Positions 1 to 38,594 of a DNA stretch of 38,594 nucleotides are shown piece after piece. The position numbers and the translations under genes were made by a program. The stretch is from a virus, in the IMG/VR virus record IMGVR_UViG_3300025362_000002, positions 1 through 38,594 of that record; one strand, written 5' to 3'. The notes beneath the pieces are model-generated. The model was not told the origin of the DNA. It did no database searches and worked only from the letters and a program-made list of their open reading frames with translations. Within the stretch, counting starts at the first letter, position 1. Each line of letters opens with the position of its first letter.

Positions 1-127
1 GTTTCATGTTCAAAGTCGAGTTTAATACTTCGTTGGTCAAACTGAGAAAGCATAGAGTCCATACAGCCTTTGGTCACGATATCGTTCACTAGGTCGATGT
101 CTCCTGTAGAAATATATCCCTCTATAA
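1..127. repeat. Terminal direct repeat, copy 1 (identical to 38468..38594)
   Basis: Read directly: gtttcatgttcaaagtcgag...atatatccctctataa occurs at both window ends. The length is exactly 127 nt, which is typical of a k-mer overlap in a circular assembly. Confidence 0.95.
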
Positions 128-215
128 AAAACTCTTTTCCCTTTGCGCCAATTACAGTTTTATAATTCAGTTTATCACTGTAGAACACAAATTCATTGTT
201 TATCTCGTCTGCCAT
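1..215 (-). CDS. Prohead protease-scaffold fusion, 5' end. ATG at 215; continues across the circular junction into 36919..38467.
   Basis: The reverse complement of 1..215 reads MADEINNEFVFYSDKLNYKTVIGAKGKEFFIEGYISTGDIDLVNDIVTKGCMD..., in frame with ORF 36919..38556. This adds 42 residues upstream of the GTG start used by the ORF track. Confidence 0.8.
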   Translation of the reverse strand, partial: MADEINNEFVFYSDKLNYKTVIGAKGKEFFIEGYISTGDIDLVNDIVTKGCMDSMLSQFDQRSIKLDFEHE

Positions 216-234
216 AGTCTTAATCCATACTCCT

Positions 235-253
235 TTTTATTTAAATATTTTTA
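235..253 (-). promoter_or_regulatory. Conserved AT-rich promoter-like module, copy a (coding strand TAAAAATATTTAAATAAAA; TATA-like TTTAAATA at 238..245)
   Basis: The 19-mer is identical to 24177..24195 and differs at 1 of 16 core positions from 2750..2765. Exactly 22 nt separate the TATA-like octamer from the protease ATG at 215. Confidence 0.5.
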
Positions 254-263
254 GGGTAGAGCA

Positions 264-35480: not shown

Positions 35481-35753
35481 CTACAGTCTTCCAGTTACAT
35501 AAATAGTTCTTGCTTCGTTATCAGTACCACCGGGAATTGCTATTCCTGTTGCTGCTGTGATTACCAAGATTGGTTCCCAATCATCAGTTGCTCCATAACT
35601 TGAAGCTGAAACTATATCTGTAATTGCACAAAGTGTACTAATGTCAATAGTATCGCCATCATCTGCTGTTGCAGGCGTTACGATCTTAAAAACATTAAAA
35701 CCAACTTGTGGATCAATTGTTACGGTACAATCCGCTATTGCTATTACTGCCAT
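35481..35753 (-). CDS. Small head-module protein
   Basis: 90-aa ORF directly after the MCP gene. Confidence 0.5.
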   Translation of the reverse strand: MAVIAIADCTVTIDPQVGFNVFKIVTPATADDGDTIDISTLCAITDIVSASSYGATDDWEPILVITAATGIAIPGGTDNEARTIYVTGRL

Positions 35754-35767
35754 TTTTTCATATACCT

Positions 35768-36907
35768 CTATGCGATGTTGTCTATGAAAGCATTAAAACT
35801 TGGTGCTCTCATAACAAGCGCTTCGTAAATTTTCAACATGAATTTACTGCTGTCGTTAGTCTTCGCAAGGTCTTCATATGTCAGGTCTTGAAGGACACGC
35901 ATCTCGATATAATCTGTATCGAGGAAGAAGATTTGCTTTGCTCCGCTCACGTTACTCAAGTACATACTTGGAATAACAGGGATTGGACCTACCATTGTTT
36001 GTAATACTAACATTGCAGGGATACCGAAAGGCAATTGAACTCCACCGACCAAGTCAGAAGGTCTGAAGTTGAACGTGTCAATCATAATCTTACGAAGGTC
36101 AGTTACAACACTTGAACTTGCTACTGCGAGTTTTGGTCGTCCACCATCATCGAATGCGCTCTGAACAGTTTCTTCGACATCGTCCCATGTTAGAGCTGCA
36201 GCTGCCAAGTCATTTTGGTTAACTGTTCCCTGTAATGCTACAATACCATTGAACTGAGTTGCATCCGTTGCGACAGAACCGTTAAGAATAAGATTTTCTT
36301 CCAATTCTTTCATAGCCCGAGCTTTCATCAACACTTCAAGTTGTTTAGCATTTGGTGCTCCTGCTGCACTGAAGTTTCCGTTACCCATTCCGTTACCAGT
36401 TGGATTAAAACCTTCAACCATGTATGCCGGCATTCCTGCTTGCATTGGACCTAGAGTTCTTCCTACTGAGTATAAGAATTTGATAGAGACTGATTGTCTA
36501 TCGTAGGTATCGTCTGTTTCTGGAAGTGCTGCATCAGCATTTGCTGTGTAAGCGCCACCTTTAGCAGTGATAATATTGTAATCTGCAGTTAGACCTTGAT
36601 TAGTTACTCGAGGAATTAATTCCACAAGAGGGTTCCACTTTCGTGACTGGTCTGTGATTCTTGGATCTACAAAAATTGGTACTAATGCGTAGCCCGATGT
36701 TCCTGCGCCACCTGCTGTTGGACCGAGTGCTTTAGCTTCCACTGCAGCGATACCTCTGTCCATAATGTCCTTTAATTCTCCTCTTAAGTCTGAGTCAGCC
36801 CAACCATTAACGTATGCTGTGCCTGCTTTTAATAGACCGAATGAGGCTTGGTAAGCTCCAACATGGTCAAAGCCGCTTCCAATAGATTTGGTTCCTATAT
36901 CATTCAT
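35768..36907 (-). CDS. Major capsid protein, HK97 fold
   Basis: 379 aa, directly after the protease-scaffold gene. KELEENLILNGSVATDATQFNGIV resembles the HK97-family e.e..hh.G.G......G motif. Size and position are typical. Confidence 0.8.
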   Translation of the reverse strand: MNDIGTKSIGSGFDHVGAYQASFGLLKAGTAYVNGWADSDLRGELKDIMDRGIAAVEAKALGPTAGGAGTSGYALVPIFVDPRITDQSRKWNPLVELIPRVTNQGLTADYNIITAKGGAYTANADAALPETDDTYDRQSVSIKFLYSVGRTLGPMQAGMPAYMVEGFNPTGNGMGNGNFSAAGAPNAKQLEVLMKARAMKELEENLILNGSVATDATQFNGIVALQGTVNQNDLAAAALTWDDVEETVQSAFDDGGRPKLAVASSSVVTDLRKIMIDTFNFRPSDLVGGVQLPFGIPAMLVLQTMVGPIPVIPSMYLSNVSGAKQIFFLDTDYIEMRVLQDLTYEDLAKTNDSSKFMLKIYEALVMRAPSFNAFIDNIA

Positions 36908-36918
36908 TTTTCGTTCAC

Positions 36919-38594
36919 CTAGAAGATTCGGTCAATTGGTCCTTTGGATTTGTTCTCAGGAACTACTTGACTTTTAGCTTCGTTGTTTTCAGGTCCTTTC
37001 GCTTTTTGTAGAGGTTTCTCTACGATCGCTTTAAGATCCTTATTTTCTTTCTTCAATTCATCGATGTCTTTTACTAAAACTTCGACAATTGATTTCAGTT
37101 CAGTCAGTGACATTGATTTGCCTTCTGGCTCTACTGGTGCTTCTGGTTCTACTGGTGCTTCTGCAGGCTTCTCTGGTTCCACTGGGGTTTCAGAGGGCTT
37201 TGCATCTACATCAGGTTTTTTTTCTTCTTCTACCATTGGTTTATACCCCGTATTTTTGTTATCGACATTGCTGTCAGATAAGTTTGATTTAAGTAATCTG
37301 TCAGCCATTCCGACTGTTAGATTTAGTTCAGTTGCTCGAGTGAACAACTCATCAGCACTTTTCTTTTTGATTGGTTCTTTTCTTACTGATTCAGTTATTA
37401 ACCTTTGAGTTTTAGGACTGAATTCATCAAAGTCCATCATACCATTAGGTTTTATTCCTGCGTTTCGATAAGCTGCGACTTTTTTATCTCGGTCCATCTC
37501 GTGCCATTCCTTATTTGAAACAGGTTTAAGTTTAGATCCTAATTCTTTCTTAACTTGCTTTTCTTTAATCAACCTTGCTTGCATAATCTTTTGTTTAGCT
37601 GATGTTCGAACAGCAGATTCTCCAATTTGTCTCAGTTGACTTGAATCTAATCTGTCCGACAAATCTTGAGCCGAAACATCTGGATCCATAGACATTATAG
37701 TTCCTTGATTGTTAGTATATTTCTTTTTGTCTGATTCTTTTGAGGATCCTTGTTTGTATGGTTTTGCTTGCCACCGCATATTTGTTGACGAAAGAGCTTC
37801 ATCTCTTTGGCTCACATAATGCTGCGCTTCTTCCTTACTCATGGGACCTTCTTTCATGAAATGATTAACCAGTTCTTTATCTGTTGAACTTTCATCATTT
37901 AGAAGTGTTGATGTTGCGAACTCTTCTTTACTCTCTTTCGATGATTCAGGTTTCTTCTTGTTTGGTTTCTTGCTTGAGCTGCCGTCAGGATAAAAATAAG
38001 TATAATTTCCGGGACGACCTGTTCGCTTAGTATATTTGTACTTTAGTTCAGTGTCCTTGATTTCAACATTCGCCATGTCGTCAGTTTCTTGGTCCTTCAT
38101 AAAAGCCAAACTCTTAGCCATCACAGCACTCATTGTCGCATGAGGATTAATAGGATTTCCTGTTAAAGCTACATTTAACAAATTCACGTTATCGAGCATC
38201 CGAATGTCTTTTCCTTCTCTTCGCATACTTTTTGTGCTCGTAGGAACATAAGCGATACTAAATGCATCTAACATCTCACTCTCTACATTGCTCCAAATAT
38301 CTTTAAACGTCATTACAACATTTCCTTTCTCATCGAACTTCTTCCAATTCTCATTCATCTTCCACTTAACCTTAACACCTTTGCTGTCTTGGTCTTTTAG
38401 GATCGCTCGTCCGAGTGGAAGGCGTGTCTTGTTCGCTTCAGCTTCTAATTTGCTTTTTCCTCTGAATGTTTCATGTTCAAAGTCGAGTTTAATACTTCGT
38501 TGGTCAAACTGAGAAAGCATAGAGTCCATACAGCCTTTGGTCACGATATCGTTCACTAGGTCGATGTCTCCTGTAGAAATATATCCCTCTATAA
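36919..38594 (-). CDS. Prohead serine protease (S78/HK97-like) fused to a long Lys/Glu-rich scaffold domain. The 3' part is in the window and the 5' end wraps to 128..215.
   Basis: GYISTGDIDLVNDIVTKGCMDSM...IKLDFEHE...LGRAILKDQDSKGVKVKWKM fits Peptidase_S78 (G.as....D...D.h...a......h...H....hG). The C-terminal half is charged, with a PVEPE repeat and a coiled coil (LTELKSIVEVLVKDIDELKKENKDLKAIV). Confidence 0.75.
   Translation of the reverse strand, partial: IEGYISTGDIDLVNDIVTKGCMDSMLSQFDQRSIKLDFEHETFRGKSKLEAEANKTRLPLGRAILKDQDSKGVKVKWKMNENWKKFDEKGNVVMTFKDIWSNVESEMLDAFSIAYVPTSTKSMRREGKDIRMLDNVNLLNVALTGNPINPHATMSAVMAKSLAFMKDQETDDMANVEIKDTELKYKYTKRTGRPGNYTYFYPDGSSSKKPNKKKPESSKESKEEFATSTLLNDESSTDKELVNHFMKEGPMSKEEAQHYVSQRDEALSSTNMRWQAKPYKQGSSKESDKKKYTNNQGTIMSMDPDVSAQDLSDRLDSSQLRQIGESAVRTSAKQKIMQARLIKEKQVKKELGSKLKPVSNKEWHEMDRDKKVAAYRNAGIKPNGMMDFDEFSPKTQRLITESVRKEPIKKKSADELFTRATELNLTVGMADRLLKSNLSDSNVDNKNTGYKPMVEEEKKPDVDAKPSETPVEPEKPAEAPVEPEAPVEPEGKSMSLTELKSIVEVLVKDIDELKKENKDLKAIVEKPLQKAKGPENNEAKSQVVPENKSKGPIDRIF
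38468..38594. repeat. Terminal direct repeat, copy 2 (identical to 1..127)
   Basis: Read directly. Confidence 0.95.

What the first reader, a model, noticed from the sequence alone, without database searches (positions are those of the whole stretch)
1..38594. Converging but unproven signals of an archaeal host for a virus built from phage-like parts
Signals pointing to an archaeal host:
- TTTA(A/T)ATA promoter modules without -35 boxes, at leaderless spacing
- hairpin-less T7-A-T8 termination tracts
- a swarm of zinc-ribbon, SWIM and wHTH micro-proteins
- a Cas4-like nuclease
- a GGAGATGAT-type SD
- sequon-dense exported proteins
- no peptidoglycan lysin

Signals pointing to a bacterial, Firmicutes-like host:
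- Sak, RusA, DUF2829, HK97 gp10-like and XhlA-like genes
- one hairpin-plus-T terminator

If the host is archaeal (a methanogen or Thermoplasmatota-like lineage would fit a backbone GC near 40-45 percent), the genome would be a compact new member of the archaeal tailed viruses. Its counter-defence and surface-modifying cargo has not been described.
Basis: inference. Interest (0 to 1): 0.6.

Follow-up and report, generated by a model that had tools for sequence, protein, structure and literature searches.

The report
Tailed virus with archaeal (DPANN-type) promoters
This is the complete 38.5-kb genome of an uncultured head-tailed virus whose promoters are built the archaeal way and match those of tiny DPANN archaea, so its host is almost certainly an archaeon, though no direct host link was found.

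Summary
The window is a complete virus record: 38,594 bases with a 127-base terminal repeat and about 63 genes, all on the minus strand. It is a siphovirus-like tailed virus and belongs to a large, uncultured family. That family has 236 IMG/VR contigs and more than 1,000 capsid homologues, but the capsid protein has no match in 50,697 GenBank phage records.

Its strongest signal can be made quantitative:
- An A-rich BRE-like stretch plus a TTTAWATA box sits 21-24 nt before the ATG of the protease gene in 38 of 57 divergent relatives.
- Genes behind such a box mostly lack a ribosome-binding site.
- The base before their ATG is a pyrimidine in 47 of 49 cases.

Two DPANN genomes show the same 21-23 nt peak. 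A bacterial (WOR-3) genome does not.

In an unbiased scan of 185,579 species genomes, five of six related contigs lie in archaeal, mostly DPANN, genome bins. The portal's best matches among isolates are haloarchaeal tailed viruses.

No CRISPR spacer or integrated copy was found, so the host is inferred, not proven. The likely host is a Nanoarchaeota/Woesearchaeales-type archaeon rather than a methanogen. Earlier follow-ups in this scan reached the same kind of conclusion for other viruses. I rate it a new member of a known kind.

The parts
1..127 (.). Direct terminal repeat, identical to 38468-38594. It marks a complete, circularly permuted or circular assembly.
   Evidence: Exact 127-nt match of the two ends. 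IMG/VR classes the record as having direct terminal repeats and as 100% complete.
238..255 (-). Late promoter P1: an A-rich BRE-like stretch plus the TATA box TTTAAATA (238-245). The box ends 22 nt before the protease ATG at 215-213, which predicts a leaderless mRNA.
   Evidence: The box sits 21-24 nt from the ATG in 38 of 57 non-redundant relatives.
128..215 (-). N-terminal 88 nt of the prohead protease-scaffold gene. The gene continues through the repeat into 38594..36919.
   Evidence: Reading frame joined across the terminal repeat, giving 587 residues. Peptidase_S78 scores 20.3 bits, just under the cut-off.
36919..38594 (-). Prohead protease-scaffold fusion, main part.
   Evidence: Conserved in all relatives immediately upstream of the capsid gene.
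35768..36907 (-). Major capsid protein, HK97-fold, SU10-like.
   Evidence: Pfam SU10_MCP, E 2.5e-19. PHROG major head protein families. 1,125 homologues in metagenomes. No hit in GenBank phages.
35454..35470 (-). T7-A-T9 tract after the small gene that follows the capsid gene. Candidate terminator or attenuator.
   Evidence: Similar T-tracts occur in relatives. A weak 9-bp stem precedes it.
34578..34593 (-). T7-A-T8 tract after gene 34598-35410. Candidate terminator.
29827..31446 (-). 539-aa protein with a hydrophobic N-terminus. Only the first 50-65 residues or so are conserved in relatives. It starts the variable block.
   Evidence: 14 sequons against 9 expected.
25555..29181 (-). 1208-aa exported, sequon-rich protein with two LamG domains and a calcineurin-like phosphoesterase domain. 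It lies in a low-GC (0.34-0.35) variable block.
   Evidence: Pfam, composition and sequons z 5.7. Only domain-level homologues exist among 5.8 billion proteins.
24180..24197 (-). Late promoter P3: the same BRE-like stretch plus TTTAAATA (24180-24187). It lies 22 nt before an ATG at 24157-24155 and heads the tail-gene leader.
22413..23384 (-). Tail tube protein.
   Evidence: Pfam Phage_tube_2, E 8e-9.
20814..21797 (-). Short tape-measure-like protein (327 aa).
   Evidence: PHROG tape-measure families, E about 1e-6.
17809..20046 (-). 745-aa distal tail or fibre protein. The function is inferred from its position only.
   Evidence: No family hit. Its N-terminal part is conserved in relatives at the DNA level.
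16271..17009 (-). Early control region. It holds two copies of AAATCGAWGRT+TTTAAAAA, with boxes at 17002-17009 and 16271-16278. These are candidate early promoters.
   Evidence: Not tested for conservation.
12753..13661 (-). PD-(D/E)XK (Cas4/RecB-like) nuclease.
   Evidence: Pfam PDDEXK_1, E 9e-7.
11652..12464 (-). Sak-type single-strand annealing protein.
   Evidence: Pfam SSAP_Sak, E 5e-33. 40-43% identity to Lactococcus phage Sak.
7325..7732 (-). RusA Holliday-junction resolvase.
   Evidence: Pfam, E 8e-33. 40% identity to RusA of Lactobacillus and Clostridium phages. Only 3 weak hits in 301 Woesearchaeales-order genomes.
5946..7265 (-). ParB-N domain fused to an N4/N6 DNA methyltransferase.
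   Evidence: Present in relatives.
4780..5967 (-). C5 cytosine DNA methyltransferase. The likely start is at 5967; the open frame reaches 6069.
   Evidence: Pfam, E 9e-81. Homologues in related 38-kb contigs.
4274..4759 (-). Small terminase-like HTH protein.
   Evidence: Weak HTH and Terminase_5 hits plus its position.
2779..4281 (-). Large terminase.
   Evidence: Pfam Terminase_6N, 23.5 bits against a 22-bit cut-off. Distant tblastn hits to Halogranum tailed virus 1 and Clostridium phages.
2750..2767 (-). Late promoter P2: the BRE-like stretch plus TTTATATA (2750-2757), 113 nt upstream of the portal ATG.
   Evidence: Relatives carry the box mostly 34-67 nt upstream of the portal gene.
264..2636 (-). 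Portal protein fused to a Mu F-like head-morphogenesis domain.
   Evidence: Pfam Phage_portal, E 3e-30, and Phage_Mu_F, E 3e-15. Best isolate match is Halorubrum tailed virus 28.

Best explanation
The window is the complete genome of an uncultured siphovirus-like tailed virus (Caudoviricetes) that replicates in an archaeon. The host is most probably a small-genome DPANN archaeon of the Nanoarchaeota/Woesearchaeales type.

**Proposed mechanism**
- The gene blocks are switched on by host-type archaeal promoters: an A-rich BRE-like stretch, a TTTAWATA TATA box and a pyrimidine/A initiator. Host TBP, TFB and RNA polymerase would read these.
- Transcription starts at, or within a base or two of, the A of the first ATG, so the first gene of a block is translated from a leaderless mRNA.
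- Downstream genes in each block use GGTG, GAGG or GGAG ribosome-binding sites.
- Oligo-T tracts after the capsid genes probably stop or attenuate transcription.

**Shown**
- The signals themselves, their conservation across the virus family, and their match to DPANN genomes.
- The virion gene set.

**Inferred**
- The start sites, the use of host TBP/TFB, and the host lineage.

My probabilities are about 0.88 for an archaeal host and about 0.6 for DPANN specifically.
For: 1. **Protease promoter.** Upstream of the protease gene, 38 of 57 non-redundant relatives have the box 21-24 nt from the ATG. This holds down to about 40% protein identity. A is conserved at -7, -6, -4 and -3 relative to the box.
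2. **Family-wide spacing.** Across 852 gene upstreams in the family, box-to-ATG distances peak at 21-23 nt.
3. **Ribosome-binding sites.** Genes behind a box carry an SD-like word in 12 of 54 cases, against 416 of 743 for the rest (p 1.5e-6).
4. **Initiator.** The base before the ATG is a pyrimidine in 47 of 49 boxed genes, against 28% elsewhere (p 2e-22).
5. **Match to DPANN genomes.** Two DPANN genomes show the same geometry. G005 has its peak at 22 nt, and G380 has 56 of 280 genes at 21-23 nt, both with A at -4/-3. The WOR-3 bacterial bin shows no peak.
6. **Agreement with mapped archaeal promoters.** In archaeal promoters the start site lies about 23 bp downstream of the TATA box (PMC4247193).
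7. **Bacterial signals absent.** Sigma-70-like sites are at or below chance.
8. **Genome bins.** The unbiased scan of 185,579 species genomes found 6 syntenic relatives, 5 of them in archaeal bins. Three of those five share one GTDB phylum, and two of these three share one order. Two more family contigs turned up within that order.
9. **Portal.** Its best hits among 50,697 phage records are four haloarchaeal tailed viruses, with E down to 8e-15.
10. **Supporting features.** No lysin or integrase domain was found. The exported protein is sequon-rich. GGTG-type ribosome-binding sites are common, as in the DPANN genomes.
Against: - There is no direct host link. No CRISPR-array hit was found in 5 bins that carry relatives or in 401 genomes of the Woesearchaeales-type order.
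- No integrated copy was found in 401 genomes of the phylum.
- All relatives in genome bins are free contigs of about 35 kb or shorter fragments, with no window homologues of host type. The association therefore rests on binning.
- One relative sits in a WOR-3 bacterial bin, and one capsid homologue is labelled Thermoanaerobacterium.
- RusA and Sak are about 40% identical to Firmicutes phage proteins. The C-terminal half of TerL matches Clostridium phages.
- Tetranucleotide signatures do not discriminate: r 0.57 against the DPANN genome and 0.48 against WOR-3.
- Weak stems precede the T-tracts, so the terminators fit either domain.
- The promoter grammar is shared by many archaea, so it does not by itself point to DPANN.
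Confidence: 0.8

Rival explanations
1. It is an archaeal tailed virus, but its host is not DPANN. The host could be a methanogen, a Thermoplasmatota member or another archaeon living with DPANN cells. In that case the viral contigs were drawn into DPANN bins by similar GC and coverage.
For: BRE/TATA promoters with leaderless starts occur in many archaea (PMC4247193). The association with DPANN bins is by binning only. One bin carries the NCBI label Methanosarcinales. One bin belongs to a different small-genome archaeal phylum, which suggests loose binning. The tetranucleotide match to the DPANN genome is modest, r 0.57.
Against: At least five bins from independent assemblies fall in one GTDB phylum, four of them in one order. 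A sixth carries the NCBI label Woesearchaeota. The 'Methanosarcinales' genome is 1.2 Mb and falls in the same phylum as the Nanoarchaeota bin. Box spacing, the A-rich -4/-3 positions and GGTG-type ribosome-binding sites match the two DPANN genomes measured. No other archaeal lineage was measured for comparison.
Confidence: 0.25
2. It is a bacteriophage of a Firmicutes-like, WOR-3 or CPR bacterium. The conserved TTTAAATA word is then a phage-specific late promoter of the -10 type, like the T4 late TATAAATA (recalled from knowledge).
For: RusA and Sak are 40-43% identical to proteins of Lactobacillus, Clostridium and Lactococcus phages. The C-terminal half of TerL matches Clostridium phages at E 1e-8. 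Two relatives carry bacterial bin labels. Weak hairpin-plus-T structures exist.
Against: A -10-type box would leave a 15-nt leader that should carry a ribosome-binding site, yet these sites are depleted there. The pyrimidine at -1 in 47 of 49 boxed genes fits initiation at the ATG. The same geometry is found in DPANN genomes and not in the WOR-3 bin. The relative binned with WOR-3 carries the same box, 22 nt from its ATG. No peptidoglycan lysin was found. The capsid protein has no hit in 50,697 phage records. The portal's best hits are haloarchaeal viruses.
Confidence: 0.07

Closest known systems
Metagenomic viruses of DPANN archaea (Wu, Liu and Ni 2024, Nat Microbiol 9:3362; 97 viruses and mobile elements linked by CRISPR, as summarised in PMC12647753 and PMC13465236)
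   Same: These are uncultured viruses assigned to DPANN hosts. The DPANN viruses reported in PMC12647753 mostly fall in Caudoviricetes.
   Different: That paper is not held here, so I could not test whether this family is among its groups. Here the host link rests on promoter grammar and binning, not on spacers.
Haloarchaeal tailed viruses (Halorubrum tailed virus 28, HSTV-1, HHTV-2, HCTV-2; Halogranum tailed virus 1)
   Same: They give the best isolate matches to the portal domain (E 8e-15 to 8e-4) and the widest TerL match (78% coverage). They share the HK97-type virion module.
   Different: Identity is only 19-24%. The capsid protein shows no detectable match. GC content and habitat differ. 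This virus has no detectable capsid-level kinship with any known family.
Archaeal BRE/TATA/initiator core promoters with leaderless mRNAs (for example Thermococcus kodakarensis, PMC4247193)
   Same: The TATA box lies about 22-23 nt before the inferred start. An A-rich element sits just upstream. A pyrimidine precedes the start. There is no ribosome-binding site on the first gene.
   Different: Start sites are inferred here, not mapped. The BRE-like consensus (A at -7, -6, -4 and -3, then two free bases) is the family's own variant and resembles that of the DPANN genomes measured.
Firmicutes siphophage recombination modules (Sak of Lactococcus 936-group phages; RusA of Lactobacillus and Clostridium phages)
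   Same: Sak and RusA are about 40% identical. A PD-(D/E)XK exonuclease sits next to the annealase.
   Different: The structural genes, the promoters and the lack of a lysin do not fit these phages. The similarity is confined to a few early genes.

Membership tests
Caudoviricetes (tailed dsDNA viruses) | HK97-fold major capsid protein | tested here: met
   Pfam SU10_MCP, 70 bits against a 24-bit cut-off. PHROG major head families. The fold itself was not modelled.
Caudoviricetes (tailed dsDNA viruses) | Portal protein and large terminase | tested here: met
   Phage_portal, 106 bits. Terminase_6N, 23.5 bits against a 22-bit cut-off.
Caudoviricetes (tailed dsDNA viruses) | Tail genes (tube, tape measure) | tested here: met
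   Phage_tube_2, 35.9 bits against a 27-bit cut-off. PHROG tape-measure families, E about 1e-6.
Archaeal virus (host domain Archaea) | Archaeal-type promoters (BRE/TATA about 23 nt before the start, initiator) conserved before gene blocks | tested here: met
   The same geometry was measured in two DPANN genomes and not in a bacterial bin.
Archaeal virus (host domain Archaea) | CRISPR spacer from an archaeal genome matching the virus | tested here: not met
   No array-borne match in 5 bins or in 401 genomes of one order. Short hits lie in ORFs or low-complexity DNA. Only a small sample of archaea was searched.
Archaeal virus (host domain Archaea) | Integrated relative flanked by archaeal genes | tested here: not met
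   The capsid profile found only free viral contigs in 401 genomes of the phylum. The longest contigs carrying capsid homologues are about 41.5 kb. No integrase was found in the window.
Archaeal virus (host domain Archaea) | Relatives recovered with archaeal genomes | tested here: met
   5 of 6 loci from the scan of all species genomes lie in archaeal bins. This is binning evidence only.
Described families of archaeal tailed viruses (haloarchaeal and methanogen viruses in GenBank) | Detectable capsid-protein and genome-wide similarity to a member | tested here: not met
   The capsid protein has no tblastn hit. Half of the genome has no megablast hit. Portal and TerL are only 19-24% identical.
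DPANN virus groups of Wu et al. 2024 | Gene sharing or hallmark-gene clustering with their genomes | not testable with these tools
   The paper and its genomes are not held here.
Firmicutes siphophages | Hallmark genes nest among Firmicutes phages; peptidoglycan endolysin present; sigma-70-type promoters | tested here: not met
   The capsid protein has no hit. TerL matches Clostridium phages over only half its length at 26% identity. No lysin was found. Sigma-70-like sites are at or below chance. No tree was built.

The most novel reading that the evidence does not exclude
This genome may represent a large, globally distributed, family-level lineage of DPANN-infecting siphoviruses that has not yet been described. 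Under this reading the lineage trades recombination genes (Sak, RusA) with bacteriophages of Firmicutes. Its variable block of exported, glycosylation-ready proteins, including the unique LamG-phosphoesterase giant, would remodel the surface through which the tiny host cell attaches to its own partner.
Probability: 0.2. Interest if true: 0.6.

Novelty: new member of a known kind. Interest (0 to 1): 0.42.

Why it matters
DPANN archaea make up a large share of archaeal diversity, yet none of their tailed viruses has been cultured. Most host assignments rely on scarce CRISPR spacers.

This case shows that promoter grammar can assign a whole virus family to Archaea when spacers are missing. The grammar has four parts: the box, its spacing to the ATG, the initiator base, and the absence of a ribosome-binding site. 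The family has hundreds of contigs, including many from Ace Lake, Antarctica.

The genome also records gene sharing with Firmicutes phages at about 40% identity. That bears on how far viral gene pools cross the domain boundary.

The result is solid but expected. Similar conclusions exist in the literature and in earlier follow-ups of this scan.

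Tried and rejected
- **Spacer search.** I searched both halves of the window against 5 bins carrying relatives and against 401 genomes of one DPANN order. Only related viral contigs, LamG or methylase coding similarity, T-tract low complexity and chance 22-35-mers came up. None of the places I inspected lies in a repeat array. Eight unpublished genomes were among those searched (G489, G479, G553, G555, G456, G581, G362, G324). Identities of 19-26% and the few retrievable sequences would not give a reliable topology.\n- **The bare TTTAWATA count.** Rejected as evidence, because 4 found against 3.8 expected is chance.

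Full report
**What the window is**

The window is a whole IMG/VR virus record of 38,594 bases. Its first 127 bases repeat at the end. About 63 genes all run on the minus strand, and there are no tRNAs.

Read on the minus strand, the gene order is as follows:
- a prohead protease-scaffold fusion, which spans the junction (128-215 plus 36919-38594)
- the major capsid protein
- head and connector genes
- a variable block of proteins with hydrophobic N-termini
- head-closure and tail genes: tube, short tape measure, distal tail and fibre
- about 35 small early genes
- a recombination set: PD-(D/E)XK nuclease, Sak and RusA
- two DNA methyltransferases
- small and large terminase
- a portal fused to a Mu-F domain

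I found no integrase, replicase or lysin domain. The virus is a siphovirus-like member of Caudoviricetes.

**How isolated it is**

The capsid protein has no tblastn match in 50,697 GenBank phage records, and half the genome has no DNA match there. Most structural proteins hit no PHROG family.

Metagenomes tell a different story. They hold 1,125 capsid homologues at E 0.001 or better, the best 120 of them 66-94% identical, and IMG/VR holds 236 related contigs. The longest contigs are about 38-41 kb, which fits free genomes of this size. Several relatives come from metagenomes 3300031227, 3300035698 and 3300025642. These are Ace Lake, Antarctica, datasets.

The bare TTTAWATA count on the coding strand is 4, against 3.8 expected by chance. 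The count alone therefore shows nothing.

Three of the four copies, however, share the word ATAAAAATA+TTTAWATA. They lie in the three largest late intergenic gaps, before the protease, the portal and the tail genes. Two of them end exactly 22 nt before an ATG.

Results for the other listed signals were mixed:
- **Bacterial promoters.** Sigma-70-like sites are fewer than or equal to chance.
- **T-tracts.** Both double T-tracts are real and intergenic, and relatives have similar tracts. Weak AU-rich stems precede both, so they are not hairpin-less and fit either domain.
- **Sequons.** Enrichment is strong for the 1208-aa protein (44 against 21.9) and mild for the 539-aa protein.
- **Zinc and HTH proteins.** The swarm of zinc and HTH micro-proteins is thinner than stated and has no family support.
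- **Firmicutes-like signal.** It is real. RusA and Sak are 40-43% identical to proteins of Lactobacillus, Clostridium and Lactococcus phages.

**The promoter test**

I fetched 86 related loci and aligned the DNA upstream of homologous genes.

- **Protease gene.** 38 of 57 non-redundant relatives carry a TATA-like box 21-24 nt from the ATG, even where protease identity falls to about 40%. A is conserved at -7, -6, -4 and -3 from the box. The spacer between box and ATG is free to vary.
- **Whole family.** Over 852 non-redundant gene upstreams, box-to-ATG distances peak at 21-23 nt.
- **Ribosome-binding sites.** Genes behind such a box carry an SD-like word in 12 of 54 cases, against 416 of 743 for the rest (p 1.5e-6).
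- **Initiator base.** The base before the ATG is C or T in 47 of 49 boxed genes, against 28% elsewhere (p 2e-22).

Together these are a BRE-like element, a TATA box, the right spacing and a pyrimidine/purine initiator, with the purine being the A of the ATG. This is the archaeal core promoter driving a leaderless mRNA. Mapped archaeal promoters place the start about 23 bp after the TATA box (PMC4247193). A bacterial -10-type reading would leave a 15-nt leader that should hold a ribosome-binding site, and such sites are depleted there.

**Comparison with candidate hosts**

I measured the same profile in cellular genomes.
- In 400 kb of the DPANN genome G005 (GC 0.39), boxes peak at exactly 22 nt. 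There are 32 at 22 nt and 52 at 20-23 nt among 373 genes, with A at -4 and -3.
- In 400 kb of G380 (GC 0.30), a single 1.2-Mb contig from the same order as G001 and G002, 56 of 280 genes have a box at 21-23 nt.
- In 152 kb of the WOR-3 bacterial bin there is no peak.

GGTG-type ribosome-binding words are common in the virus and in the DPANN genomes, and rare in WOR-3.

**Relatives in genomes**

A capsid-based scan of one genome per species (185,579 species) found six syntenic relatives. By record title they are two Woesearchaeota bins, one Nanoarchaeota bin, one 'archaeon', one 'Methanosarcinales' and one WOR-3 bacterium.
- The 'Methanosarcinales' genome is 1.2 Mb. It falls, with one of the Woesearchaeota bins, in the same GTDB phylum as the Nanoarchaeota bin.
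- The 'archaeon' belongs to another phylum of small archaeal genomes.
- Searches inside the order turned up two more family contigs.
- The relative binned with WOR-3 carries the same archaeal box 22 nt from its ATG, so that bin label is probably an error.

All these contigs are free viral genomes or fragments, so the link rests on binning.

**Hallmark genes**

The portal domain's best isolate matches are Halorubrum tailed virus 28 (E 8e-15), HHTV-2, HSTV-1 and HCTV-2, ahead of two actinophages. TerL is mixed. Its widest match is Halogranum tailed virus 1, and its best E-value is to Clostridium phages over the C-terminal half only. At 19-26% identity I did not build trees.

**What was not found**

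No spacer match and no provirus were found in the genomes searched. Tetranucleotide signatures do not discriminate. Homologue names are almost absent.

**Verdict**

An archaeal host is very likely, about 0.88. A bacterial host is unlikely, about 0.07.

The Sak and RusA similarity is best read as gene sharing across viral gene pools. RusA is rare in DPANN genomes.

The role of the variable exported block, the methylases and the partial Tad2-like domain as counter-defence or surface-modifying cargo remains untested. The 1208-aa protein is unique apart from its LamG and phosphoesterase domains.

**Novelty**

DPANN-associated viruses, mostly tailed, have been reported from metagenomes (Wu et al. 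2024, as cited in PMC12647753 and PMC13465236). That paper is not held here, so I could not test overlap with its groups. Earlier follow-ups in this scan reached the same kind of conclusion on other virus genomes (e1-4501010, e1-3426402).

I therefore class this as a new member of a known kind. It has a well-supported host domain and an unproven host lineage.

Noticed in passing
window 10028-16947, minus strand (for example 16941-16947, 15355-15361, 14906-14912, 12466-12472, 10767-10773, 10028-10034): The 7-mer GATACGA occurs 12 times on the coding strand and never on the other strand. Nine copies sit 0-3 nt before an ATG (eight of them at starts of early ORFs), often as GGAGATGATACGAA+ATG. 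This is a shared start context for early genes. It could be an extended ribosome-binding site or a regulatory word.
   Followed up: partly
window 24102-24160, minus strand; also L004, L007, L008, L033, L055, L072, L096: The leader of the gene at 23400-24101 holds two copies of CCAAGAGG(C). One lies near the predicted 5' end and one serves as the ribosome-binding site. The pair is conserved across divergent relatives. Its function is unknown.
   Followed up: partly
window 16271-16289 and 17002-17020, minus strand: Two copies of AAATCGAWGRT+TTTAAAAA+GG lie in the early control region, next to the GGCCTTA repeats (TAAGGCC on the + strand, near 16310-16338). They are candidate early promoters with a different upstream element from the late ones.
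   Followed up: no
window 2637-2749, minus strand: The portal gene has a 113-nt leader with no ribosome-binding site. Relatives share the word tCACAtTC just before ATGGCATC. The closest relative, L023, shares most of the last 70 nt of the leader.
   Followed up: no
window about 28896-28952 (N-terminal LamG domain of the 1208-aa protein): Some ten genomes of the DPANN order give 30-47-nt DNA matches (83-94% identity) to this one spot. The one match I inspected lies outside any repeat array, so I read these as a shared LamG motif rather than spacers.
   Followed up: partly
window 5946-6069: The open frame of the C5 methylase overlaps the end of the ParB-methylase gene by 124 nt. The methylase domain starts after the Met at 5967, which is the likelier start.
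   Followed up: partly
window 7325-7732 and 11652-12464: RusA and Sak are far closer to Firmicutes phage proteins (about 40% identity) than any structural gene is to any phage (19-26%). This suggests gene exchange between bacterial and archaeal virus pools.
   Followed up: partly
window 33190-33762: This 190-aa head-region protein matches PHROG 5335, of unknown function, at E 2e-11. It also has a 35%-identical copy in the distant relative G418:C21.
   Followed up: no
L146/L147 (G418:C21, 34.7 kb) and G447:C133: These are further, more distant family members (capsid 52% identical) in bins of the same DPANN order. G447:C133 keeps the RusA and ParB-methylase genes on one short contig, as in the window.
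   Followed up: partly
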